Source of the DNA: an uncultured Alphaproteobacteria bacterium
GTDB lineage: Bacteria > Pseudomonadota > Alphaproteobacteria > HIMB59 > GCA-002718135
Direction of reading: 5' to 3'
Length of the DNA: 64,000 nucleotides
Assembly: GCA_902577905.1 (NCBI GenBank)
Contig: CACHAQ010000004.1
Span: forward strand, 12,206 to 76,205
Of the stretch, positions 2,503 through 21,203 are shown piece by piece; positions within the stretch are counted from its first letter, which is position 1; each line of letters starts with the position of its first letter. A program made the translations under genes and the position numbers. The notes beneath the pieces are model-generated. The model was given only the letters and a program-made list of their open reading frames with translations, was not told the origin of the DNA and did not search any database.

Positions 2503-3011
2503 TATTTTTTATTTTTTAAAAATTTTTGTACTTTTTTAATCATTATATTCCTTTTTAATGAAGAAAGATAATCTACAAATAACTTTCCAGAGAGATGATC
2601 AATTTCATGTTGTAAAATTCTTGATTCCACTCCACTAACTTCTTTTGTTATTTGTTTGTTATTTTCATCTAAATACTCGACTACTATATTTTGAGGTCTC
2701 TCAATTTCTGCAAATTGTTCAGGAAGAGATAAACAACCTTCTTCCATAATAATTTTTTCTTGAGAGTAAGAAATAATATTGGGGTTAAATAATGTATATT
2801 GTGTTTCTTTTTTAGTCTCTTGATCTACAAAAAATATAGTCACAATTTGTTTTAGAATTCCAATTTGATTTGCTGCTAAACCTACGCCTGGTGCTTTTAT
2901 CATTATTTGCATCATTTTTTTGGCAATTTCTTTTTCCTTAACTCCAACAGACTGAATTTTATCTGCTTTTTGGCGTAATAGTGGATTTGGTACGTAAAGT
3001 AATTTATCCAT
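2502..3011 (-). CDS. def: Peptide deformylase
   Basis: GVGLAANQIG, EGCLSLP and HEIDHLSG metal-binding motifs. Confidence 0.92.
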   Translation of the reverse strand: MDKLLYVPNPLLRQKADKIQSVGVKEKEIAKKMMQIMIKAPGVGLAANQIGILKQIVTIFFVDQETKKETQYTLFNPNIISYSQEKIIMEEGCLSLPEQFAEIERPQNIVVEYLDENNKQITKEVSGVESRILQHEIDHLSGKLFVDYLSSLKRNIMIKKVQKFLKNKK

Positions 3012-3017
3012 TTTTAT

Positions 3018-3617
3018 TTATGTAATTTTTTTTCTAGATTGGAATGCTGTATTTAATGTATTTTCATCTAAGTAGTGTACCTCTCCACCCATAGGGATTC
3101 CTTGTGCAAGTCTTGTTACATTTAATTCTTTAAATTTTTCCAGCTTATCTGCAATAACAAAAGATGTTGTTTGTCCTTCCATAGTTGTACTTAAGGCAAG
3201 AATAATTTCTTTAACATTATTTGTTTCAATTCTCTTTAGTAGATGCTCTATTTTCAATTCATCAGTTCCTATACCTTGAATCGCTGATAATGAACCGCCT
3301 AAAACATTATAGAGACCACGATAAAATCCTACTTTTTCTAATGTCCACAAATCTGACACATCCTCAACAACACAAATTGTTGCTTTATCTCTTTTAGAGT
3401 TTGCACAAATATTGCATGGATTTACCATGTCTATATTTCCACATTCTGAACACTCAATAATTTTATTATAAGATAAGTTTAAACTCTCAATTAAAGGAGA
3501 TAAATTTTTATCTTTATTTTTTAATAAAAAAAGAGCAATTCTTTGAGCCGATCTTCTTCCTAATCCTGGAAGTTTTGAAATATCGTTTATTAATTTGTCT
3601 ATTGGGGATTGCTCCAT
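3018..3617 (-). CDS. recR: Recombination protein RecR
   Basis: LPGLGRRSAQR helix-hairpin-helix, a C4 zinc finger (CSECGN...CNIC) and a Toprim segment. Confidence 0.9.
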   Translation of the reverse strand: MEQSPIDKLINDISKLPGLGRRSAQRIALFLLKNKDKNLSPLIESLNLSYNKIIECSECGNIDMVNPCNICANSKRDKATICVVEDVSDLWTLEKVGFYRGLYNVLGGSLSAIQGIGTDELKIEHLLKRIETNNVKEIILALSTTMEGQTTSFVIADKLEKFKELNVTRLAQGIPMGGEVHYLDENTLNTAFQSRKKIT

Positions 3618-3619
3618 TT

Positions 3620-3943
3620 TTAGAAAGGAAGTTTCATTCCTGGAGGTAATGGTAGTCCACCTGTGAGATTTTTCATTTCTTCTTGGGCTGCAGCTTCTCC
3701 TTTTTCTTTGGCATCATTTATTGCAGCGACGATCAGATCTTCAAGTATTTCTTTCTCATCTTGTTTAATCAAGCTATCATCAATTGATATTCTTTTAAAT
3801 ATACCTTTTGCTGTAGCTGTTACTTTAATAAGACCTCCTCCAGAAGTGCCTTCAACTTCAATATCATTTAATTTATTCTGTGCTTCAGCCATCTTCTTTT
3901 GCAACTGTTGGGCTTGCTTCATCATATTACCTAAATTAACCAT
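3620..3943 (-). CDS. ybaB: Nucleoid-associated protein YbaB/EbfC
   Basis: 107 aa with NMMKQAQQLQKKM and GGGLIKVT motifs; sits in the conserved dnaX-ybaB-recR order. Confidence 0.85.
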   Translation of the reverse strand: MVNLGNMMKQAQQLQKKMAEAQNKLNDIEVEGTSGGGLIKVTATAKGIFKRISIDDSLIKQDEKEILEDLIVAAINDAKEKGEAAAQEEMKNLTGGLPLPPGMKLPF

Positions 3944-5631
3944 TATTTCTCCTTTTTCATCTTTGGTTGATTTATATCTGTGTCATCATCATTTATTTCA
4001 CCTAGTTCTGTAATAGCGTGAATTTTACTTTCAGGAAATTCTTTTAATATTTTTTTTACTTCTGGATGATTTTTCATTATTTCAATTTCTTTTTGTTGGT
4101 TAATAATATCTTCATCATGCAAACTTTTTCCAAGATTGCTTGTAGATGAATGTATCTGCCATATTCTTCCAGTCCATTTAGAGATTAATTTTGCAACAGT
4201 TCTATTGAAGCCAGTCTCATTAATTTTAGATGTGTTTAGGGTAACTTCTCCTTCTTTAAAAGAGACTAACTGTACATCATTGTATAACTTAGTGTGAAGT
4301 AATCCTTCTCTATTTTTAAAAAACATATCGACAAAATGTCTAAAGTCTTGAACGTGTTTTTTATTTACATTGTCTTTTGGTAAAATTTCTTTTTTATTTT
4401 CATTAAAGTTTAGAATTTTGTTACTTTCATTAGATTTATTTTGTAGTTCAAGATTTTTTTCTAAGGGTTCTTTTTTTACTACCTCTTTATCCATTTTTTT
4501 AATTAGATCTTCTGGACTTGGACCATCATGTAAATAAATAATTCTTAAAATAATCATTTCTCCATGTTGGTATAAATGAGAGCTATTTTGTAATTCTTGA
4601 TAACCTTTGAATAAAATTTGCCAGATAATATTCAGATTATTTAATGTCATTTTTGATGACAATTCAGCTCCTTTATTTCTTTCAAATTCAGGAATATAAA
4701 TGTCATCTTTTAGATCTGGTGCTATCTTGATTTGAACAAGAAAATGTACTACGTTTAATAGTTCATCAAATATCATTGCTATATCTGCTCCTAACTCATA
4801 CAACTCTTTATAGTTATTAATTGCACCAAGGGCATCTCCTTCTAAAATAATTTCAATTAAGTTAAATATTTTTTCTCTATCAGCTAATCCCAGCATGTTT
4901 ATTACAGTTTGTGAGTCAACTTTTTCATTTGGACTAGTTATTGCTTGATCTAGTAGACTAAGTCCATCTCTTACAGATCCATCTGCTGATCTTACAAGTA
5001 AAGAAATAGCATCTAAATCTATATCAATATTTTCTAGTTTGGAAATTTTTAATAAATGATCTGATAAAATTTTATTTTCTATTCTATGTAAATCAAATCT
5101 CTGACACCTAGATAGAACGGTTAATGGTACTTTTTTAATTTCTGTTGTAGCAAAAATAAACTTAACATGTTCTGGTGGCTCTTCTAAAGTTTTTAGCAAA
5201 GCATTGAATGCACTTTTTGAAAGCATATGAACTTCATCAATTATAAATATTTTATAATCACCAATAACAGGTTTATATTTTACATTATCAATTATCTCTC
5301 TAATGTCATCAACACCGGTATTTGAAGCTGCATCAATCTCAATAACATCAAGATTACTGTCTGAAGTTGTTGATTTACATGAATCACAAGTTCCACATGG
5401 TTCACAATTTTTTTTATCTCTATTCTTACAATTAATACTCATCGCTATAAGTCTAGCAGTGGTAGTTTTTCCAACACCTCTGACACCTGTTAGAATATAT
5501 GCGTGAGCTAGCCGGTCATTATTAATAGCGTTTGATAGAATTTTTACTAATAATTCTTGACCAATTAAATCTTCAAATTTTTGTGGTCTATATTTTCTAG
5601 CTAAAACTTTATATTTTTTTTCTTCTGTCAT
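3943..5631 (-). CDS. dnaX: DNA polymerase III subunit tau/gamma
   Basis: YRPQKFEDLIGQ, Walker A GVRGVGKTT, a zinc module CxxCxxC and DEVHMLS. The start is set at ATG 5631 (MTEEKKYK) because the 5632-5664 extension on the ORF track overlaps the SRP RNA. Confidence 0.9.
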   Translation of the reverse strand: MTEEKKYKVLARKYRPQKFEDLIGQELLVKILSNAINNDRLAHAYILTGVRGVGKTTTARLIAMSINCKNRDKKNCEPCGTCDSCKSTTSDSNLDVIEIDAASNTGVDDIREIIDNVKYKPVIGDYKIFIIDEVHMLSKSAFNALLKTLEEPPEHVKFIFATTEIKKVPLTVLSRCQRFDLHRIENKILSDHLLKISKLENIDIDLDAISLLVRSADGSVRDGLSLLDQAITSPNEKVDSQTVINMLGLADREKIFNLIEIILEGDALGAINNYKELYELGADIAMIFDELLNVVHFLVQIKIAPDLKDDIYIPEFERNKGAELSSKMTLNNLNIIWQILFKGYQELQNSSHLYQHGEMIILRIIYLHDGPSPEDLIKKMDKEVVKKEPLEKNLELQNKSNESNKILNFNENKKEILPKDNVNKKHVQDFRHFVDMFFKNREGLLHTKLYNDVQLVSFKEGEVTLNTSKINETGFNRTVAKLISKWTGRIWQIHSSTSNLGKSLHDEDIINQQKEIEIMKNHPEVKKILKEFPESKIHAITELGEINDDDTDINQPKMKKEK

Positions 5632-14382: not shown

Positions 14383-16368
14383 ATGAATCCAATAGAGCCA
14401 TCAGAAAATAAAATAAAAGAATTAATATCATTATTTGATAAAAAAAAATTTGATCAACTTTTGAAATTATCAAATGAACTAATAGATAAATTTCCTAACT
14501 CTATTCTTATTCAAAATATACAAGGTGTAGTACACACAGAACTTAAAAATTATAAATTAGCCAAAAATTTATTTATCAAAGTAGTTAATCTAAGCCCAAA
14601 TTATACTGATGGTCATTATAACTTAGCTAATGTTTACAACAAATTAGATGAAAAAGAGAGAGCAATAGAAAGTTATAATAAGGTTATAAAACTAGACATT
14701 AATTATTTTAAAGCTCATAATAATCTAGGAAATATATATAGAAAAAAAGGGTTAAATAAGAGGGCTATTGAATGTTATTTATCAACTTTAGAAATCAATT
14801 CAAATTATAAAGTAGCATATTACAACTTAGCAGGGGTACTTCAGTTTTACATATTAGATAAAGAGAATAAAAATATCAATAAATATCTTTTACATCTTTT
14901 AAAAGAAAAAATTATTGTTAGACCAAATTCTATTGCTCCTAATATTTTAAATGGTTTATATTTAAATACAGATTTGAAGAATAACTTATCTTTAATTAAG
15001 GATAAAATAACTAATGAAGATTTAAATTATATTTTAGAAAATTTACAGAACAACTCTCTTCTAATGCAATTTATGAAAGTGTGTCCTATTCCTGATTATT
15101 ATATCGAAAAAAATTTTGTTAAGATAAGAAAAGAAATTTTAAACCAAACATACAAATTAAATATTGATAAAAATCACATTAATTTTTTAATTTCTTTATC
15201 TATGCAATGTTTTCTTAATGAATATATTTATGACCAATCAAAAGATGAGATAGAAAAAATAAAAAAAATTGATGAAAGAATTAAAAACAATTTAAAAGAA
15301 AATAAAGAAATCAGTGATTTAGATATATTGTGCTTATTATGTTATGAACCTTTAACTAATTTTAGTTGGTCAAATAAAGTTAAATTTTCAGATAAATTAA
15401 ATGAAATATTTAAATTACATCTAAATCACAATGAAATTGAAATTCAAATATCTAAATCAATAAAGTCTATATCGAAAGTAGAGGATCACGTTTCAATTAA
15501 GGTAAAAAAACAATATGAAGAAAACCCTTATCCTAGATGGGAAAATCTTGGATTAAGTATTGAACCTAGAGAAATTAAAGAGGTAATAAATGATAACGAT
15601 TTAAATTTAGATTTAAAAAAAATAACAAACTCTGAAAGCCCTGAAATTCTAATTGCCGGTTGTGGCACTGGTCAGCATGCCATTACAACTGCTTCAAAAT
15701 ATAAAAAATCTAAAATACTTGCCCTCGATTTAAGTTTTAAAAGTTTATCTTATGCAAAAAGAAAGGCAAATGAGCTCAACATTAATAATATTGATTTTAT
15801 TCAAGGGGATATTTTAGATTTAGAATCAATAGGTAGAAAGTTTGATATAATTGAATCAGTTGGTGTTCTACATCATATGGATAATCCATTTAAAGGATGG
15901 AAAATATTAACATCATGTTTAAATAAAGATTCTTTAATGCTAATAGGATTATATAGTCAAAAGGCTAGAAAACACATAATTCAAATTAGAAATAAAATTA
16001 ATGATCTTAAACTAGAGCATAATTATAAAAATATCATTAAATTTAGAAAGGATCTAATAGAGAGTAATAATGACCAATGGAATGATATTATATCAAGTCC
16101 AGATTTTTATACAGTAAGTGGCGTGAGAGATTTATTATTTCATGTTCAAGAACATAGGTTTACAATAAATACAATTAAAGAATATTTAAATAAATTAGGA
16201 TTAACATTTCTTGGATTTGAAGATAAATTAGTTAAAGAAAATTTCAAAAAAATTTATTTAAATAAAGTTGATATATATAATCTTGATAAGTGGGAAGAAT
16301 ATGAAAAGTCTAATCCAAGGATCTTTGCAGGAATGTATCAATTTTGGTGCAAAAAAATTAATATTTAA
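14383..16368 (+). CDS. TPR-repeat / unknown central domain / class I SAM-dependent methyltransferase fusion protein
   Basis: About four TPR units in residues 30-160 (NLANVY, NLGNIY, YNLAGV). The C-terminus has IAGCGTGQH (motif I), LALDLS, GDILDL and ESVGVLHHM. The ATG directly abuts the yejF stop. Confidence 0.7.
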   Translation: MNPIEPSENKIKELISLFDKKKFDQLLKLSNELIDKFPNSILIQNIQGVVHTELKNYKLAKNLFIKVVNLSPNYTDGHYNLANVYNKLDEKERAIESYNKVIKLDINYFKAHNNLGNIYRKKGLNKRAIECYLSTLEINSNYKVAYYNLAGVLQFYILDKENKNINKYLLHLLKEKIIVRPNSIAPNILNGLYLNTDLKNNLSLIKDKITNEDLNYILENLQNNSLLMQFMKVCPIPDYYIEKNFVKIRKEILNQTYKLNIDKNHINFLISLSMQCFLNEYIYDQSKDEIEKIKKIDERIKNNLKENKEISDLDILCLLCYEPLTNFSWSNKVKFSDKLNEIFKLHLNHNEIEIQISKSIKSISKVEDHVSIKVKKQYEENPYPRWENLGLSIEPREIKEVINDNDLNLDLKKITNSESPEILIAGCGTGQHAITTASKYKKSKILALDLSFKSLSYAKRKANELNINNIDFIQGDILDLESIGRKFDIIESVGVLHHMDNPFKGWKILTSCLNKDSLMLIGLYSQKARKHIIQIRNKINDLKLEHNYKNIIKFRKDLIESNNDQWNDIISSPDFYTVSGVRDLLFHVQEHRFTINTIKEYLNKLGLTFLGFEDKLVKENFKKIYLNKVDIYNLDKWEEYEKSNPRIFAGMYQFWCKKINI

Positions 16369-16375
16369 TGCTAGA

Positions 16376-16445
16376 TGGCGGAAAGAGAGGGATTCGAACC
16401 CTCGGTAGTATTGCTACTACACACGCTTTCCAAGCGTGCTGATTA
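16376..16445 (-). repeat. Non-functional copy of the 3' 70 nt of tRNA-Ser(GGA) (att-like direct repeat, left copy)
   Basis: 69/70 identical to 17674-17743 in the same orientation. It lacks the 5' acceptor strand and D-arm. Confidence 0.9.
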
Positions 16446-16505
16446 TTAGAGAGTTAGAGGATTACAACGATTATTTAGAGTTAATTTTTTATTTTCTTAT
16501 AGTAA

Positions 16506-16524
16506 GTGCAGCCTATATGTAGCC
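16506..16524. repeat. 19-bp repeat GTGCAGCC-TAT-ATGTAGCC (left copy of a nested pair)
   Basis: 17/19 identical to 17609-17627; lies 8 nt beyond the stop of the SHOCT-domain ORF. Confidence 0.8.
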
Positions 16525-16531
16525 AAAATTT

Positions 16532-17590
16532 TTATAATTCATCTAAAATTTCCTTACGTTTTTCATCATATTCTTCTTTAGTTATTAATTCTTTATCAAA
16601 AATTGATTTTAATTTGATTAATCTATCCTCCAAAGATTGGTCAATTTTTTTACTTTCCGCAGTATTATCTAAATTAATTTTATTTTTTTTATTGTTTGAA
16701 TTATTATCTAAGCTTGTATTTTGATTTATGATATTATCATCTTCACAATTTTTAATTTCAAAAATCATATCAAGTTTTTCATAACCACTCAGATCAAAGT
16801 TACTTAAACCACTATCAATAGTTTCTCCAAAGTCTGCAAAAATTGAAAATTTATAACTACCATGAAAATATATACCTGTTGCGATATCAATTAATTGATA
16901 TCCGATAAAAGTAAAATTGCTCTTTGCAGGAAAATTCTCATATTTATGTTTGGTATTAAATTCCGCTACAAGTACATTTCTTCCGTTAAAACAACTTGTA
17001 CCCATTATTTTAGGTTGAATAACTTCAGGCATGGCATCAAGCAAATTGAATTTATCAGTAAGCTGTAAGTCAGAGCGAGATAATCCTTCAACACCTACTA
17101 AGCCTAATACATACGATTTAAAGGGATAATCAATTAAAACATCATTAGTTTTATATTTTTTTTTATATTCAAAGAATGAAGATTCAATAAATGTATCTAT
17201 AAATTTTTTATATTTTTTTTTTCTTAACTTATACCAACCACCATCATAATCAGTGATCCAAAAAATAGAATTTTTTACTTCACCATTAGGAGTTAAATAA
17301 ATATCGACTTTATATGTAGTATCTCCAACTATTTTTAAAATAATTTCAATAATTAAAGTCTCGCTATTATTTTTTTTTATTGAAATACTTTGATTGAATA
17401 TTTGAGTCTCTTTTTCACCTAAGCTTGTGTATTCACTTGTAGATTTACCACTTAATTTTCCTTCAAAAAAATTATATTTTAACTTGATTGGGTCAGATAT
17501 TTTCTTAATATTTCCTGGGTAACTTAAAGCATTAACACTTAAATTAAAAAAAGTTAAAATTATAATAAAACAATAATAACGTAAACTCAT
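16532..17590 (-). CDS. Orphan secreted protein with C-terminal SHOCT domain
   Basis: Signal peptide MSLRYYCFIIILTFFNLSVNALS, a beta-rich body with no recognised motif, an N/K-rich linker and a terminal LEDRLIKLKSIFDKELITKEEYDEKRKEILDEL (SHOCT-like). The GTG at 17605 is the alternative start used on the ORF track. Confidence 0.6.
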   Translation of the reverse strand: MSLRYYCFIIILTFFNLSVNALSYPGNIKKISDPIKLKYNFFEGKLSGKSTSEYTSLGEKETQIFNQSISIKKNNSETLIIEIILKIVGDTTYKVDIYLTPNGEVKNSIFWITDYDGGWYKLRKKKYKKFIDTFIESSFFEYKKKYKTNDVLIDYPFKSYVLGLVGVEGLSRSDLQLTDKFNLLDAMPEVIQPKIMGTSCFNGRNVLVAEFNTKHKYENFPAKSNFTFIGYQLIDIATGIYFHGSYKFSIFADFGETIDSGLSNFDLSGYEKLDMIFEIKNCEDDNIINQNTSLDNNSNNKKNKINLDNTAESKKIDQSLEDRLIKLKSIFDKELITKEEYDEKRKEILDEL

Positions 17591-17608
17591 AAAAAAATTT
17601 AACACATT

Positions 17609-17627
17609 GTGTAGCCTATGTGTAGCC
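17609..17627. repeat. 19-bp repeat GTGTAGCC-TAT-GTGTAGCC (right copy; perfect internal 8-mer duplication at 11-bp phase)
   Basis: Direct reading of the sequence; located 19 nt upstream of the ATG at 17590 of the SHOCT-domain ORF. Confidence 0.8.
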
Positions 17628-17673
17628 TAAATTAATTCTGAATAATTAAACGTGACTGTAATTTTGATATTTA

Positions 17674-17763
17674 TGGCGGAGAGAGAGGGATTCGAACCCT
17701 CGGTAGTATTGCTACTACACACGCTTTCCAAGCGTGCTGATTAAACCGCTCTCACATCTCTCC
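17674..17763 (-). tRNA. tRNA-Ser (anticodon GGA), CCA encoded
   Basis: The minus strand reads GGAGAGAUG...CUUGGAAAG...GUAGUAGCAAUACUACC...GAGGGUUCGAAUCCCUCUCUCUCCGCCA. It has a 7-bp acceptor stem, anticodon loop UUGGAAA, a long variable arm and a T-loop UUCGAAU. Confidence 0.9.
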
Positions 17764-17820
17764 AATTATAAAGAATTATTATAATAATTATTTTTTATAT
17801 TAATTAAACAAAAGTATTAT

Positions 17821-18654
17821 TTAAATATAGATAAATACAGTTACACAAATTATAATTAAAGAAGAAAATAATATTTTTTTTTCATTAAAAATTAAATCAA
17901 TAGGGAATTCACCAATATTTTTTGAAAATGATACTTTGTAATACTCATAAACTACAAGTATTAAAAATGGTAAAATAATTATTAAAATATTGTTAGAAAA
18001 TAGAATAAAAATAAATACACATAAAATAAATATAGCCCCATTAATTTTAGAAACTAATTTAAGAATTGCTATTGAATAGTTTAACTTTTTAATTCTTAAT
18101 GTCTCCTGATTAAGAACTTCTAAAGATCTTTTGATTGAAATAACAAACATTGCTAAACAAAAAACTGAAATTGCTAATGATAATGATGTTTCAACTTCGA
18201 TTATGTATGATCCTAAAAATAATCTAATGAGATAGCCAATTGAGATTAAAAACATCTCTAAATATTTTACTTTTTTTAGAAAAAATGAATAACTCACATT
18301 AATAACTAAATAAATCAAAATAAAATAAATAAGTTCAGGAAATAAAATTAAAAGAATTGTAATTACAATAATAAACAAAAAAAATAAAATTAATGAAAAA
18401 TTTAAACTTAAACTTTCAGAAGCTAAAGGTTTTATATTTCTTTTTAGTTTATGAAGCTTATCATCTTTATAATCTAAAATATCATTAAGTATATAAACTG
18501 AGGAAGTTGTAAGAGAAAATATAAAAAATGCTACTAAAACATTAATTATATTTTCTAGTGAATAAAAATTACTAGAAAAAATTATTGGAAAAAAAATTAC
18601 AATATTTTTTATCCAGTCTTTTACTCTGATTAATTGGATTACACTTCTAAACAT
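17821..18654 (-). CDS. UbiA-family prenyltransferase, decaprenyl-phosphate phosphoribosyltransferase (DPPR synthase)-like
   Basis: About 8 TM helices. NDILDYKDDKLHKLKRNIKPLAS matches the ND..D...D..H..KR..(R)P.A signature of the DPPR-synthase subfamily. Confidence 0.6.
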   Translation of the reverse strand: MFRSVIQLIRVKDWIKNIVIFFPIIFSSNFYSLENIINVLVAFFIFSLTTSSVYILNDILDYKDDKLHKLKRNIKPLASESLSLNFSLILFFLFIIVITILLILFPELIYFILIYLVINVSYSFFLKKVKYLEMFLISIGYLIRLFLGSYIIEVETSLSLAISVFCLAMFVISIKRSLEVLNQETLRIKKLNYSIAILKLVSKINGAIFILCVFIFILFSNNILIIILPFLILVVYEYYKVSFSKNIGEFPIDLIFNEKKILFSSLIIICVTVFIYI

Positions 18655-18692
18655 TAGAAATTTGTATAATATAGGATTACTAGTTAAATTAT

Positions 18693-20651
18693 ATGTTTTT
18701 TAAGTTATTTTTATTCTTAACAATTTTAATTAATTTAGGCTTACCATTAGTAAACAAACTAGATCTTGTTTTTATTTTTATATTTATTTCTTTCTTAATA
18801 CTTTTTCCCAGCATCAATTGGGGTATATTTATTAAAAAAAAAATAACCCTATTTTTTTTTATAATTATTACATCAATAAACTTGTTAATTCCAAAAAACT
18901 TTTTTCATGAATTCCATCAAGTTTTTTTAAATAGTAATGACATAGAAATAATCTCTAATTTACTACCTTCCAACGTAATGATAGATATTAAAAAAGACTA
19001 CAATAAGCATTTTGACATTGATAGAGCATTAAAATCAAGAGAGTGGCAAGAAAAGGAATTTAATAAAAGTCAATTTATAAATAAACCGTTTGCATATTCT
19101 TCTGATAATTTTTTTCAAAAATCTAATTTCACTAGAAAAAATAATAAAATAGAATTTAAGATGCGAGAACAATTAAGAATAGGTGAAATTAATTCTGGTA
19201 AATATAATCTTCCTTTTGATAAACAATTTAGAAGAGAATTACCATATTATGTACTATACGAAATTGATAAAAAAGCCTCAAACTCAAAAATTTGTTCTAA
19301 CAAAAAACTTTATTTTTTTGAGTCCAACAAAAAATTAAATCAAAAATTAATTCAGAAACAAACTTTTAGTAAAACAAGTAACGATAATTGTTTGGTTGTC
19401 GGAGGAGATTATAAATATTTATATTTACTAGGATATTCAATTAATTTAGCAGATAATTTAGAAATAAATACTGAATATAATTTAGAAATAATTTTTTTAA
19501 AATCTTTAAAATATTTTTTTACTTTGATTATAATTTTATTAATTTTTAATAGTAATTATCAAAAGAATTATTATGATTTTTTAATTTATTTTATTTCTGT
19601 ATGCAGTGGTTTAATTCTCACATTCATTAGAGATCCAAATCTTATATTTGGAATAAGATACTTTAGAGGTGGGGCTGATGGTCTTCAACACTATTCACAT
19701 GGCAAAGATATTCTAGAGAACATAAGTAATAATAATTTTATATCTGCTCTACAAGGTGGAGAAGATGTCTTTTATTTTATGCCTGGCCTAAGATATTTTA
19801 GTGCTATCAATAATCTTTTTTTTGGAGATACAACATATGGATATTTGATTTTATGCACTTTATTACCTTTATTATTTTTTAAATTGTTCAAAAAAATCAC
19901 TAATAAAAAAATATCATTTTATATTTTTATATCATTTATTTTTATACCAATTTTTGAAAATATGGGTTTTGGATATTTTAATTATATATGGCAATTTGCT
20001 AGACACCATGCTGAGACTTTAAGTATTTTACTTATTGTGTACTCAATTTACTTGATAGTTTGTCTTGATTTAGAAAAGAAAACCAAAGAACCACTATATC
20101 TTATTGGAATTTTTTTATCTTTATCAGTTTTTTTAAGGCCAAATTTTTTTCCAACAAGTTTGGTCTTAGTTTTATGTTCTGTGTTAATTTTATTTCAAAA
20201 CAGAAATTATAAAAGTATTTTTTTCATCCTTACAGGATATTCATTAATTTTTATTTCTTTAATTCATAATTATTATTTTGGTAATAGTTTATTTTTCTTT
20301 ACTGACTCAGGTGTAAATTTTAAACTAAACTTAAAATCGCTAGTTATTTCAATAATATCAATTATAAAATTAGATTTTAATAATGAAAATTTTTTAATAT
20401 TAAAATCACAAATAAGCAACTGGAACCCGCTGTATAATATACACCGTTTAATTATTCTTACATTTATATTTTATATAATATTAAAAAATAAACACAAACT
20501 CATTATTTATAGTCTATTCATATCAATGATTTTACAACATGGTGTATTGCTTGTAAGTCATCCAAGTAGCAGATATGCATATTTAGCTTGGTTACTTACT
20601 TTTGTATTATTTGTTTATTCATTTTTTTATTCTAGAAAAAAAATGAGATGA
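18693..20651 (+). CDS. Large polytopic membrane protein (about 14 TM), possible GT-C-type glycosyltransferase or polymerase
   Basis: 652 aa: three N-terminal TM helices, a K/N-rich soluble insert of about 190 aa, then many TM helices with a conserved-looking loop (RYFRGGADGLQHYSHG...FYFMPGLRYF). No family is recognised by eye. Confidence 0.35.
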   Translation: MFFKLFLFLTILINLGLPLVNKLDLVFIFIFISFLILFPSINWGIFIKKKITLFFFIIITSINLLIPKNFFHEFHQVFLNSNDIEIISNLLPSNVMIDIKKDYNKHFDIDRALKSREWQEKEFNKSQFINKPFAYSSDNFFQKSNFTRKNNKIEFKMREQLRIGEINSGKYNLPFDKQFRRELPYYVLYEIDKKASNSKICSNKKLYFFESNKKLNQKLIQKQTFSKTSNDNCLVVGGDYKYLYLLGYSINLADNLEINTEYNLEIIFLKSLKYFFTLIIILLIFNSNYQKNYYDFLIYFISVCSGLILTFIRDPNLIFGIRYFRGGADGLQHYSHGKDILENISNNNFISALQGGEDVFYFMPGLRYFSAINNLFFGDTTYGYLILCTLLPLLFFKLFKKITNKKISFYIFISFIFIPIFENMGFGYFNYIWQFARHHAETLSILLIVYSIYLIVCLDLEKKTKEPLYLIGIFLSLSVFLRPNFFPTSLVLVLCSVLILFQNRNYKSIFFILTGYSLIFISLIHNYYFGNSLFFFTDSGVNFKLNLKSLVISIISIIKLDFNNENFLILKSQISNWNPLYNIHRLIILTFIFYIILKNKHKLIIYSLFISMILQHGVLLVSHPSSRYAYLAWLLTFVLFVYSFFYSRKKMR

Positions 20652-21202
20652 AAATAATAACGCATTTAAGAAAATTAATTTATCCGTATGAGGATGTAGT
20701 GAAAGAGATACCGCCTTATTCTAATATTCTTGATATTGGATGTGGAAACTCTCATATTCTAGAAGATTTCACAAAACTGAAAATTAATTCATATACTGGA
20801 ATTGATCCTAAGGTGAAAAATAAAATTGAAGAAAAAAATATTTCTATTTCAAATAAAACAATTGAAGAGTTTATCGAAGAAATTGATAAATTTGATTGTA
20901 TATTAATGATTGATGTAATGCATCATTTACAAAAAGAAATCCAGGAAATTCTATTTAGAAATATAATTTCTTCTATGAAAAAAAATTCCCTTTTGATTTA
21001 CAAGGATATTTCAAATAGAAATAAATTTTTTGCTTTTATGAATTGGGCACATGATTTGCTATATAATTTCCAAAAGATTAATTACTTTAGCTCAGATAAC
21101 ATAAAATTAATTCTAAATAATAATGGAGTTGTTTACAAACATTATTTTAAAAGAGTATTTTGGTATGATCATGAGTTTTTTATTATAAGAAATACAAAAT
21201 AA
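20648..21202 (+). CDS. Small class I SAM-dependent methyltransferase
   Basis: ILDIGCGNS (motif I), GIDP and ILMIDVMHHL; 4-nt overlap with the upstream membrane-protein gene. Confidence 0.6.
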   Translation: MKIITHLRKLIYPYEDVVKEIPPYSNILDIGCGNSHILEDFTKLKINSYTGIDPKVKNKIEEKNISISNKTIEEFIEEIDKFDCILMIDVMHHLQKEIQEILFRNIISSMKKNSLLIYKDISNRNKFFAFMNWAHDLLYNFQKINYFSSDNIKLILNNNGVVYKHYFKRVFWYDHEFFIIRNTK

Positions 21203-21203
21203 T

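What the first reader, a model, noticed from the sequence alone, without database searches (positions are those of the whole stretch)
16376..17763. A 70-nt duplication of the tRNA-Ser(GGA) 3' part brackets a 1.2-kb single-gene insert: an att-like island with no integrase
The minus-strand tRNA-Ser(GGA) at 17674-17763 is intact, with acceptor GGAGAGA/TCTCTCC, a long variable arm and an encoded CCA. Its 3'-terminal 70 nt (17674-17743) recur in the same orientation at 16376-16445 with a single mismatch (16383 A versus 17681 G, which would make a G-U pair). The left copy has no 5' acceptor strand or D-arm, so it is not a gene. This is the classical attL/attR footprint of site-specific integration into the 3' part of a tRNA gene. 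A 70-nt core is unusually long. The bracketed DNA holds only one ORF and no integrase or excisionase. It is therefore either the eroded stump of a larger element, for example a temperate phage of the kind known to target tRNA genes in SAR11, or a minimal cassette mobilised in trans. The left copy begins 7 nt after the stop of the TPR-methyltransferase gene. The inferred empty site is therefore the methyltransferase stop, 7 nt, then tRNA-Ser.
Basis: partly seen in the sequence, partly recalled or inferred. Interest (0 to 1): 0.7.

Follow-up and report, generated by a model that had tools for sequence, protein, structure and literature searches.

The report
Integrase-less gene cassette at tRNA-Ser
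A single gene of unknown function was spliced into the serine tRNA gene of a SAR11 marine bacterium as a small mobile cassette that keeps its docking sequences but has no recombinase of its own; it is one of dozens of such cassettes stacked at this tRNA in related genomes.

Summary
A 71-nt direct repeat (70 of 71 identical) brackets a 1,228-nt insert next to an intact tRNA-Ser(GGA).

The att-site reading is supported:
- Related SAR11 genomes include empty sites (methyltransferase, 17 nt, tRNA, 17 nt, lepA).
- They also carry other cargo and arrays of up to four cassettes separated by tRNA 3' fragments.
- I catalogued 60 such cassettes of 127-3,097 nt. None encodes an integrase.

All cassettes share one layout: tRNA 3' part, about 45 nt, a tandem 9-11-nt repeat (M), cargo, the same M variant, about 60 nt, then the next tRNA fragment.

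Full-length tyrosine integrase genes sit directly behind the same tRNA-part, arm and M layout in other marine contigs. One contig also carries an excisionase-like gene and a primase, as phage satellites do.

The window's cassette is therefore most likely a non-autonomous relative of these elements. It would have been inserted by crossover in the anticodon loop, with the integrase supplied in trans.

The 70-nt repeat is not unusually long. It runs from about the anticodon stem to the CCA end of a long-arm tRNA. No phage carries the site.

tRNA-flanked cassettes in streamlined marine bacteria are already described. The shared arm and M layout appears undescribed.

The parts
16376..16445 (-). Displaced, non-functional copy of tRNA-Ser(GGA) positions 21-90. 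It is the distal att junction and marks the tRNA's original position beside the methyltransferase gene.
   Evidence: It is 70/71 identical to 17674-17743, lacks a 5' acceptor strand and D-arm, and is not called by ARAGORN or Rfam. In empty-site relatives the full tRNA occupies this position.
16446..16505 (-). P arm of the cassette (family B/C). It contains the conserved stretch CTAAATAATCGTTGTAATCCTCTAACTCT next to the partial tRNA copy.
   Evidence: The same arm sequence lies next to partial tRNA copies of cassettes with unrelated cargo, for example in L049, L054, L065, L092, L025 and L160.
16506..16524 (-). Tail copy of the tandem motif M (GGCTACATATAGGCTGCAC), a candidate pair of arm-type integrase-binding sites.
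   Evidence: This motif and its head copy are the only two matches (3 mismatches or fewer) in the 64-kb window; 0 are expected. Head and tail copies match in the majority of cassettes, beyond all 200 shuffles in about half of those of 300 nt or more.
16532..17590 (-). Cargo ORF of 352 aa. It has a hydrophobic N-terminal stretch that reads like a signal peptide, a beta-rich middle in a low-confidence model, and a C-terminal SHOCT-like helix pair. Its function is unknown.
   Evidence: SHOCT E 6.5e-5, below the Pfam cut-off. There are only 6 near-full-length or substantial homologs among 5.8 billion proteins. No PADLOC hit. The AF2 model is poor, pLDDT 51. Every homolog whose context I examined lies within the element that starts just downstream of a tRNA-Ser(GGA) 3' end.
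17609..17627 (-). Head copy of the tandem motif M (GGCTACACATAGGCTACAC, two 11-nt-spaced units). It lies 46 nt beyond the tRNA 3' end and 18 nt before the cargo ATG.
   Evidence: In integrase-bearing relatives the integrase start codon follows M at the same place.
17628..17673 (-). P' arm, the 46-nt AT-rich spacer between the tRNA 3' end and M.
   Evidence: In nearly all cassettes with a recognisable M, and in the 3'-type integrase-bearing element L203, M starts about 41-48 nt after CCA.
17674..17763 (-). Intact tRNA-Ser(GGA). Positions 21-90 (17674-17743) form the proximal att junction, inferred to have arrived with the cassette.
   Evidence: ARAGORN and Rfam, 53.1 bits. The sequence is identical or nearly identical to the tRNA of the relatives retrieved.
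14383..16368 (+). Left flank: the TPR plus class-I methyltransferase gene. It is not part of the cassette.
   Evidence: Pfam. It lies next to the tRNA in empty-site relatives, and is absent from a more distant clade where yejF abuts the tRNA.
17764..21203 (.). Second, independent variable segment between the tRNA 5' end and lepA: a UbiA-family prenyltransferase, a 652-aa polytopic membrane protein and a 184-aa methyltransferase. No tRNA repeat or M motif bounds it.
   Evidence: This interval is 14-17 nt in many relatives and up to 5.9 kb in others. Homologs at 37-48% identity sit in the same place in L007, L082, L131 and L175.

Best explanation
The 1,298-nt unit is a non-autonomous integrative cassette. 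It consists of a complete attP-type docking module plus one cargo gene. The module reads M, P arm, tRNA-Ser positions 21-90, P' arm, M, about 200 bp in all.

Mechanism, with shown and inferred steps marked:
- A circular form recombined with the chromosomal tRNA-Ser(GGA) by tyrosine-recombinase site-specific recombination (inferred).
- The crossover lay in the anticodon loop (inferred from where the identity blocks of all element types overlap).
- The cassette's own tRNA 3' part completed the gene, and the old 3' part was pushed next to the methyltransferase gene (layout shown; direction of events inferred).
- The integrase was supplied in trans by a related autonomous element (inferred).
- Such elements exist. 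They target the same tRNA, carry the same arm layout, and place the integrase gene exactly where this cassette has its cargo (shown).
- Repeated events at the same site build arrays (arrays shown; serial insertion inferred).
- The tandem motif M is most likely the arm-type binding site of the integrase's N-terminal domain, and perhaps also the operator of the integrase gene (inferred).
For: 1. Footprint: a precise duplication of tRNA positions 21-90 with an intact tRNA.
2. Empty sites in at least 12 relatives and flank homology across the partial copy.
3. 32 cassettes in 66 species-level genomes and 28 more in metagenome contigs, 127-3,097 nt with 0-4 ORFs. Arrays hold up to 4 fragments. All copies in a locus share one orientation, and each locus checked has at most one real tRNA.
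4. Conserved ends regardless of cargo, in two arm families. M starts about 41-48 nt after CCA, and M ends 50-72 nt before the partial copy. The M variant is the same at both ends of a cassette and differs between neighbouring cassettes. Head and tail similarity is correlated (r = 0.20; 0 of 1,000 permutations reach it).
5. The cassette is the unit of homology. The alcohol-dehydrogenase cassette is 93-98% identical in five different species, and the similarity stops at the tRNA fragments. Two cassettes lie in opposite order in L036 and L050.
6. Many partial copies carry a different, compensated tRNA allele, so they were imported rather than copied locally.
7. Integrase-bearing relatives were found. 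L203 reads M, arm, tRNA 33-90, 45 nt, M, RBS, integrase, then an AlpA-like excisionase and a primase. L202 and L206 are integrated beside SAR11-type genes (L202 in the lepA locus); L201, L207 and L208 begin at the tRNA 5' part with no upstream flank. All five read tRNA 5' part, arm, M, integrase.
8. The M variants beside those integrases (GGCACAC, GGGTTCAC, GGTCTCAC) are the same ones found in integrase-less cassettes.
9. Mirror-image 5'-type cassettes keep 43-62 codons of the integrase N-terminus, with a weak Pfam Arm-DNA-bind_4 hit. This shows descent from integrase-bearing elements.
10. The identity blocks of all element types overlap only at positions 33-41, the anticodon loop plus 2 nt.
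Against: - No excised circle or circularly permuted contig of any integrase-less cassette was found.
- No integrase with the window's own M variant (GGCTACAC) was found.
- No integrase lies in the 64-kb window or in any of the roughly 190 loci that carry 3'-type sites.
- Only one 3'-type integrase-bearing element (L203) was found, and its P arm is longer (about 113 nt from M to the core) than that of the cassettes.
- Binding of M by the integrase is inferred from position and co-occurrence only.
- Homologous recombination could account for much of the present distribution.
Confidence: 0.6

Rival explanations
1. In-situ erosion only. Each cassette is the stump left after a complete integrase-bearing element (satellite or prophage) integrated and then lost its integrase and replication genes by deletion. 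The stumps are no longer mobile and are inherited vertically.
For: The 5'-type cassettes retain integrase N-terminal remnants with variable truncation points. SAR11 genomes are strongly deletion-biased (established knowledge). Complete elements exist at the same tRNA.
Against: - None of the 60 3'-type cassettes has an integrase remnant, yet the large majority keep recognisable arms, M or both.
- In the cassettes inspected the cargo ORF begins within a few tens of nt of M.
- The same cassette occurs in different species, at different array positions and in permuted order, with 93-98% identity bounded exactly by tRNA fragments.
- 127-132-nt 'empty' cassettes consist of arms plus a single M.
Confidence: 0.2
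2. Homologous recombination moves the cassettes. The arms are relics of ancient integrase events. Today the 62-72-nt tRNA fragments, or the flanking core genes, act as RecA substrates for loop-out, Campbell-type re-insertion or allelic replacement after DNA uptake.
For: The repeats are long enough for RecA-dependent recombination, and SAR11 populations recombine heavily (established knowledge). No integrase lies near any 3'-type cassette. No circles were seen. The neighbouring tRNA-lepA segment varies without any repeats.
Against: This does not explain three things: why M and both arms stay conserved at fixed distances in cassettes with unrelated cargo, why the M variant matches at both ends of a cassette, and why the same M variants sit in front of integrase genes. 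Partial copies of 86-94% identity would be poor RecA substrates.
Confidence: 0.15
3. Local tandem duplication or an assembly artefact created the second tRNA fragment.
For: None beyond the bare fact that a repeat exists.
Against: The same cassette, with both junctions, was assembled independently in a TARA metagenome at 99% protein identity. The layout recurs in dozens of independent single-cell genomes and metagenomes. The insert is unrelated to flanking DNA.
Confidence: 0.02

Closest known systems
Additive flexible genomic islands: gene cassettes inserted at tRNA genes in streamlined marine and freshwater bacteria. Described for SAR11 (PMC11796062), 'Ca. Actinomarinales' (PMC7771536) and Methylopumilus (PMC10872708).
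   Same: [quoted passage not shown] The SAR11 paper reports partial tRNA repeats in four islands and only one integrase in all islands.
   Different: In the text I could read, those papers do not describe conserved arms, the tandem motif M, empty cassettes, the two polarity types, or a link to a specific integrase family. I could not establish whether this tRNA-Ser locus is one of their four islands, because the supplements are not held.
Marine phage satellites (VEIMEs, PMC9618062) and PICI-like tycheposons of Prochlorococcus (bioRxiv 10.1101/2020.12.28.424599).
   Same: The integrase-bearing relatives found here carry a tyrosine integrase, and L203 also has an AlpA-like excisionase/regulator and a D5-type primase. 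They use tRNA attachment sites in abundant oligotrophic hosts. VEIMEs are reported integrated in Pelagibacter. Tycheposon islands hold stacked elements separated by partial tRNAs, plus degraded remnants.
   Different: The window's cassette has none of the defining genes. I did not test whether L203-type elements belong to a published VEIME module or are packaged. The integrase family is absent from IMG/VR contigs.
CIMEs (cis-mobilisable elements) of Streptococcus: att-flanked elements that lack recombination genes. Recalled from my own knowledge, not checked here.
   Same: Elements flanked by att sites, with no integrase, related to integrase-bearing elements that use the same site, and able to sit in tandem (accretion).
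   Different: CIMEs are larger and derive from conjugative elements. Mobilisation of the present cassettes has not been shown.
Mobile and chromosomal integron cassette arrays.
   Same: Works alike: arrays of promoter-poor cassettes of one to a few genes, each with its own recombination site, mostly co-oriented, with orphan or secreted-protein cargo and a recombinase acting in trans on the cassette.
   Different: There is no IntI gene or attI next to the array, and no attC-type folded single-strand site. The repeated unit is a tRNA fragment with lambda-type arms. This is not a member of the integron family.
Temperate pelagiphage integration at SAR11 tRNA genes (bioRxiv 10.1101/410191; PMC8477408).
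   Same: Tyrosine integrases that target SAR11 tRNA genes, with partial tRNA duplication and reconstitution of the tRNA by the element.
   Different: Reported sites are tRNA-Cys, -Leu, -Arg, -Asn and -Met, with cores of 11-46 bp that lie at the 5' end or in the middle of the tRNA. tRNA-Ser is not named in the text of either paper that I could read, and one paper's table of eight sites was not available. No phage record or viral contig matches this site. The HTVC019P integrase has no relative in any locus.

Membership tests
tRNA-targeted tyrosine-integrase integrative element (attL/attR footprint) | A direct repeat of part of a tRNA gene brackets the insert, and the tRNA is reconstituted intact. 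| tested here: met
tRNA-targeted tyrosine-integrase integrative element (attL/attR footprint) | Unoccupied (empty) sites exist in related genomes. | tested here: met
   (L003, L004, L016, L021, L030, L033, L044, L045, L055, L058; yejF-adjacent in L019 and L064).
tRNA-targeted tyrosine-integrase integrative element (attL/attR footprint) | The element encodes its own integrase. | tested here: not met
   Pfam on the cargo. tblastn with 9 integrases against the window and all loci found nothing.
tRNA-targeted tyrosine-integrase integrative element (attL/attR footprint) | attP arms carry repeated arm-type sites recognised by the integrase. | tested here: inconclusive
   The tandem motif M lies at set distances on both arms and directly upstream of integrase genes in relatives. 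Binding was not tested.
tRNA-targeted tyrosine-integrase integrative element (attL/attR footprint) | The element excises to a circular intermediate. | tested here: inconclusive
   No contig among those held (193 loci) has terminal repeats. L203 looks like a free attP form of an autonomous element. Reads were not available.
Additive flexible genomic island | A tRNA-adjacent hot spot whose cassette content differs among close relatives, with partial tRNA repeats at cassette ends. | tested here: met
   Definition taken from PMC7771536, PMC11796062 and PMC10872708.
Phage satellite / VEIME / PICI-like tycheposon | Integrase plus excisionase or regulator plus a primase or replication module within the element. 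| tested here: not met
   The window cassette has one ORF with no such domain. The relative L203 does meet this feature.
Integron | An IntI integrase gene and attI adjacent to the array, and attC sites on the cassettes. | tested here: not met
   The neighbours are yejF, the TPR-methyltransferase, UbiA, a membrane protein, a methyltransferase and lepA. No tyrosine recombinase lies in any array locus. The repeats are tRNA fragments, not attC sites.
Pelagiphage prophage or remnant | Phage genes in the insert, or a matching attP in a pelagiphage genome. | tested here: not met
   Caveat: the exact-match patterns could not have matched elements whose core starts at position 33 or that carry the 5' half. 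The integrase-based scan and BLAST against phage records do cover those.
CIME-type non-autonomous integrative element | Flanked by att sites, lacks recombination genes, and shares its att site with autonomous elements. | tested here: met
CIME-type non-autonomous integrative element | Mobilised in trans or in cis by the autonomous element. | not testable with these tools
   The evidence is indirect only: the same cassette in different species, positions and orders.

The most novel reading that the evidence does not exclude
SAR11 is regarded as almost free of mobile elements. It may nevertheless run an integron-like gene-capture system at tRNA-Ser(GGA).

- A pool of integrase-less cassettes, each a roughly 200-bp attP module plus 0-4 genes, would be inserted, stacked, shuffled and lost at the anticodon loop.
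- The enzymes would be a diversified family of tyrosine integrases carried by rare satellite-type elements.
- Specificity would be set by co-varying pairs of tandem arm motif (M) and integrase N-terminal domain.
- The cassettes would then be hitch-hikers on phage satellites, and a major route of gene gain in the ocean's most abundant bacterium.
Probability: 0.4. Interest if true: 0.8.

Novelty: new member of a known kind. Interest (0 to 1): 0.55.

Why it matters
SAR11 has an open pangenome but almost no recognisable mobile elements, so how it gains genes is an open question. This locus offers a concrete and testable route: defined docking modules, a defined target (the anticodon loop of tRNA-Ser(GGA)) and a candidate integrase family. 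The sequences needed for a recombination assay are now in hand. They are the attB, several attP modules with different M variants, and matching integrases. The cargo includes orphan proteins with signal-peptide-like N-termini, dehydrogenases, tdh-kbl and hydrolases, which suggests niche-level adaptation. For annotation, the case shows that partial tRNA copies in SAR11 mark cassette boundaries and are not pseudogenes.

Tried and rejected
- **Phage origin.** Three exact-pattern scans of IMG/VR for the tRNA core, two for the arm sequences and one integrase-based scan all returned nothing. BLAST of the core and of two reconstructed attP sites against 50,697 phage records found only generic tRNA-Ser matches from unrelated hosts. 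The first three patterns were too strict to match 5'-type or L203-type sites. I realised this only.
- **Integrase hunt by regular expression**. The second motif (GH..Y) would miss this family, which has GNW/GGW..RY, so I replaced it with tblastn.
- **Cargo function.** Pfam gave only a weak SHOCT hit and PADLOC gave nothing. AlphaFold2 with 7 sequences gave pLDDT 51, too poor for a fold search.
- **Circular contigs.** None found.
- **Promoter and terminator scan of the cassette.** No more sites than in shuffles.
- **M as a XerCD/dif-like site or a replication iteron.** I considered both from memory. I rejected them because M is a direct tandem repeat with no inverted arms, and no Rep gene is present.
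- **The 3.4-kb tRNA-lepA segment as a 5'-type cassette.** Rejected: it has no tRNA 5' fragment, no M and no conserved arm.
- **Supplementary tables** of the two key papers are not held, so I could not match this locus to published island numbers or attB lists.
Full report
**1. The observation**

The window holds one tRNA gene, tRNA-Ser(GGA), at 17674-17763 on the minus strand (ARAGORN; Rfam 53.1 bits). Its 3' 70 nt recur at 16376-16445 in the same orientation. The repeat is 71 nt if the base after CCA is counted. The single mismatch is 16383 A versus 17681 G.

The left copy corresponds to tRNA positions 21-90. It has no 5' half, and neither tool calls it a tRNA. It starts 7 nt after the stop codon of a TPR plus methyltransferase ORF (14383-16368). 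The 1,228 nt between the copies hold one ORF, 16532-17590 on the minus strand, 352 aa. Its only Pfam hit is a weak C-terminal SHOCT match.

**2. What relatives show**

An exact-pattern scan of one genome per species found 66 loci. Almost all are SAR11 single-cell genomes. I oriented them like the window and mapped them with the window's proteins and the tRNA.

- **Empty sites.** Twelve loci have the tRNA directly after the methyltransferase gene, or after yejF in a more distant clade that lacks the methyltransferase. In several of them lepA follows the tRNA after only 14-17 nt.
- **Flank homology.** The DNA beyond the window's partial copy is homologous to the DNA beyond the full tRNA in those empty sites. 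The partial copy therefore marks the tRNA's original position.
- **Occupied sites.** Twenty-two other loci carry one to four partial copies, all in one orientation. With few exceptions they start at tRNA positions 19-32 and run to or near the 3' end. ARAGORN finds at most one real tRNA per locus.
- **Catalogue.** I found 32 fragment-bounded cassettes in these genomes and 28 more in SAR11-like metagenome contigs. They are 127-3,097 nt long and carry 0-4 ORFs.
- **Cargo.** It includes orphan proteins whose N-termini read like signal peptides, a zinc alcohol dehydrogenase, a dienelactone-hydrolase-type enzyme, MORN-repeat proteins, tdh-kbl, an HNH protein and a eukaryote-like glutaminase.
- **The window's cargo.** It is rare: there are only six substantial homologs among 5.8 billion proteins. 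Every homolog whose context I could examine lies within an element that begins directly downstream of a tRNA-Ser(GGA) 3' end. One is the same cassette, with both junctions, in a TARA metagenome.

**3. Conserved layout**

The cassette ends are conserved whatever the cargo.

- After the CCA comes an AT-rich arm of about 45 nt. It is followed by a tandem repeat of a 9-11-nt unit, which I call M. In the window M reads GGCTACACATA GGCTACAC, at 17609-17627.
- The cargo follows. Then comes a second M of the same variant (16506-16524), a 50-72-nt arm, and the next tRNA fragment.
- The arms fall into two sequence families. The window belongs to family B/C.
- M comes in at least eight variants, including GGCACAC, GGTCTCAC, GATCACAC and GGGTTCAC. 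The variant is the same in both units and at both ends of a cassette, but differs between neighbouring cassettes in an array.
- The majority of cassettes show a recognisable M at both ends. In about half of the cassettes of 300 nt or more, the head-tail match exceeds all 200 shuffles.
- In the window M occurs only at these two places, where 0 are expected.
- Two 'empty' cassettes (L005, 132 nt; L062, 127 nt) consist of the two arms and a single M.

**4. The cassette is a mobile unit**

- The dehydrogenase cassette is 93-98% identical in five different species, and the similarity ends at the bounding tRNA fragments.
- It sits next to yejF in one genome, next to the full tRNA in another, and in opposite order relative to the hydrolase cassette in L036 and L050.
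- Many partial copies carry a different tRNA-Ser(GGA) allele with compensated changes in the variable arm. The fragments therefore arrived with the cassettes rather than being copied locally.

**5. Where the integrase is**

No cassette, no flank and no part of the window encodes a recombinase. This rests on Pfam and on tblastn with nine integrases against about 1.2 Mb.

The lead came from mirror-image cassettes on the lepA side of the tRNA (L006, L027, L195). They read: displaced tRNA 1-41, an arm, M, cargo, M, an arm carrying a promoter-like sequence, and a new tRNA 5' half. Directly after their first M is a 43-62-codon conserved reading frame that continues into unrelated tails.

A profile of this frame hits the N-terminus of full-length tyrosine integrases, and it has a weak Pfam Arm-DNA-bind_4 match. 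The closest integrase family has about 45 clusters in marine metagenomes. It is encoded directly behind the same layout:

| Locus | Layout | Context |
|---|---|---|
| L201, L208 | tRNA 5' part (to position 45), arm, M, RBS, integrase | contig begins at the tRNA part |
| L202 | same | integrated in the lepA locus |
| L206, L207 | same, with tRNA 1-66 | L206 is flanked by SAR11-type glycosyltransferase genes |
| L204, L205 | same | upstream DNA carries an M-like repeat and genes of unknown origin |
| L203 | M, arm, tRNA 33-90, 45 nt, M, RBS, integrase, then an AlpA-like excisionase/regulator and a D5-type primase | no host genes, no full tRNA, same M variant on both sides |

L203 is most simply read as the free attP form of a satellite-type element.

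The M variants beside these integrases are the same ones seen in integrase-less cassettes. Two integrases that share an M variant are about 97% identical to each other.

The identity blocks of all element types overlap only at tRNA positions 33-41, the anticodon loop plus 2 nt. This places the crossover there. That is the classical sublocation, flanked by the symmetric anticodon stem (the generalisation is from established knowledge, Williams 2002, as cited in PMC8477408). It also explains the 62-72-nt repeats in a 90-nt long-arm tRNA.

**6. Interpretation**

The window's cassette is a non-autonomous member of a family of integrative elements that target tRNA-Ser(GGA). It keeps the whole docking module, and its cargo gene sits where the autonomous elements have their integrase.

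I put 0.6 on insertion by an integrase supplied in trans. I put 0.2 on immobile erosion stumps and 0.15 on present-day movement by homologous recombination. These readings are not fully exclusive. An artefact is excluded.

Not shown: circles, integrase binding to M, and an integrase paired with the window's own M variant.

**7. Relation to what is known**

- Stacked elements and remnants separated by partial tRNAs are described for Prochlorococcus tycheposons.
- Phage satellites with tyrosine integrases are reported integrated in Pelagibacter.
- Pelagiphage attachment sites are known at other tRNAs, with cores at the 5' end or in the middle of the gene.

The finding is therefore a new member of a known kind.

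I found several features in none of the papers searched: the shared arm and M layout, the two polarity types, the empty cassettes, and the link between integrase-less cassettes and a specific integrase family.

**8. Verdict**

Interest is 0.55. The more novel reading is an integron-like capture system with the recombinase acting in trans. I give it 0.4 probability, and it would deserve about 0.8.

Noticed in passing
L006 (oriented coordinates 2574-4730), L027, L195:4809-7493, L196-L200: Mirror-image '5'-type' cassettes lie on the lepA side of the tRNA. They read: displaced tRNA 1-41, conserved arm (TCGTCTTGTAGCGCGACT...), M, a 43-62-codon remnant of an integrase N-terminus, cargo, M, an arm carrying a promoter-like sequence, and a new tRNA 5' half. 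In L027 the insert is only 180 nt, and the working tRNA has a different 5' half supplied by the element.
   Followed up: yes
window 17764-21203: The interval between the tRNA 5' end and lepA is a second variable segment, 14-17 nt in many relatives and up to 5.9 kb in others. Here it holds a UbiA-family prenyltransferase, a 652-aa polytopic membrane protein with no Pfam hit, and a small methyltransferase. GC is about 0.2. Divergent homologs (37-48%) sit in the same place in L007, L082, L131 and L175. It looks like a replacement-type cell-envelope glycosylation island.
   Followed up: partly
L012 (oriented 553-2846): A 2,294-nt cassette with GC 0.38 encodes a 678-aa glutaminase with an N-terminal EF-hand-like domain and C-terminal ankyrin repeats. 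From memory, this domain layout is typical of eukaryotic kidney-type glutaminase. It may be a eukaryote-derived gene in a SAR11 cassette.
   Followed up: no
L091:77-2555: A two-gene cassette encodes a threonine-dehydrogenase-like zinc dehydrogenase and a class-I/II aminotransferase of the kbl type. This would be a route from threonine to glycine, which is notable in an organism I recall as being glycine/serine-dependent.
   Followed up: no
L050, L027, and many partial copies (for example L007, L012, L014, L065): A second tRNA-Ser(GGA) allele circulates. It has compensated changes in the variable arm (GTATAGTGGCAACACTATC), and in some genomes a different 5' half (GGAGAGGTGGCCGAGTGGTTGAAGGC). 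Partial copies of one allele sit next to full tRNAs of the other.
   Followed up: partly
L197:4965-11518 and L198: Two full tRNA-Ser(GGA) genes bracket about 6.4 kb. The segment contains an integrase N-terminal remnant, a 464-aa protein, several small ORFs and a DUF2130 protein. It may be a larger, partly degraded element.
   Followed up: no
window 14383-16368: The methyltransferase domain of the TPR-methyltransferase matches the PADLOC model mad2 (E 1.4e-12). This is probably generic methyltransferase similarity. The gene is absent from a more distant SAR11 clade, where yejF abuts the tRNA, so it is itself accessory.
   Followed up: no
window 16379-16420 and 17677-17718 (+ strand): Rfam gives sub-threshold hits (about 44 bits; gathering score 68) to the plastid psbI-rps4 3'-UTR family on the strand opposite the tRNA. 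The match covers the T-arm and variable arm, so it looks like tRNA-Ser antisense similarity rather than a real element.
   Followed up: no
L008, L042, L047, and L001, L015, L023, L028, L029, L031, L034, L057: Some relatives have 0.1-4.2 kb between the methyltransferase gene and the tRNA with no detectable tRNA fragment. The larger inserts carry GT2 glycosyltransferase and large membrane-protein genes. These may be older cassettes with decayed repeats or a different insertion route.
   Followed up: no
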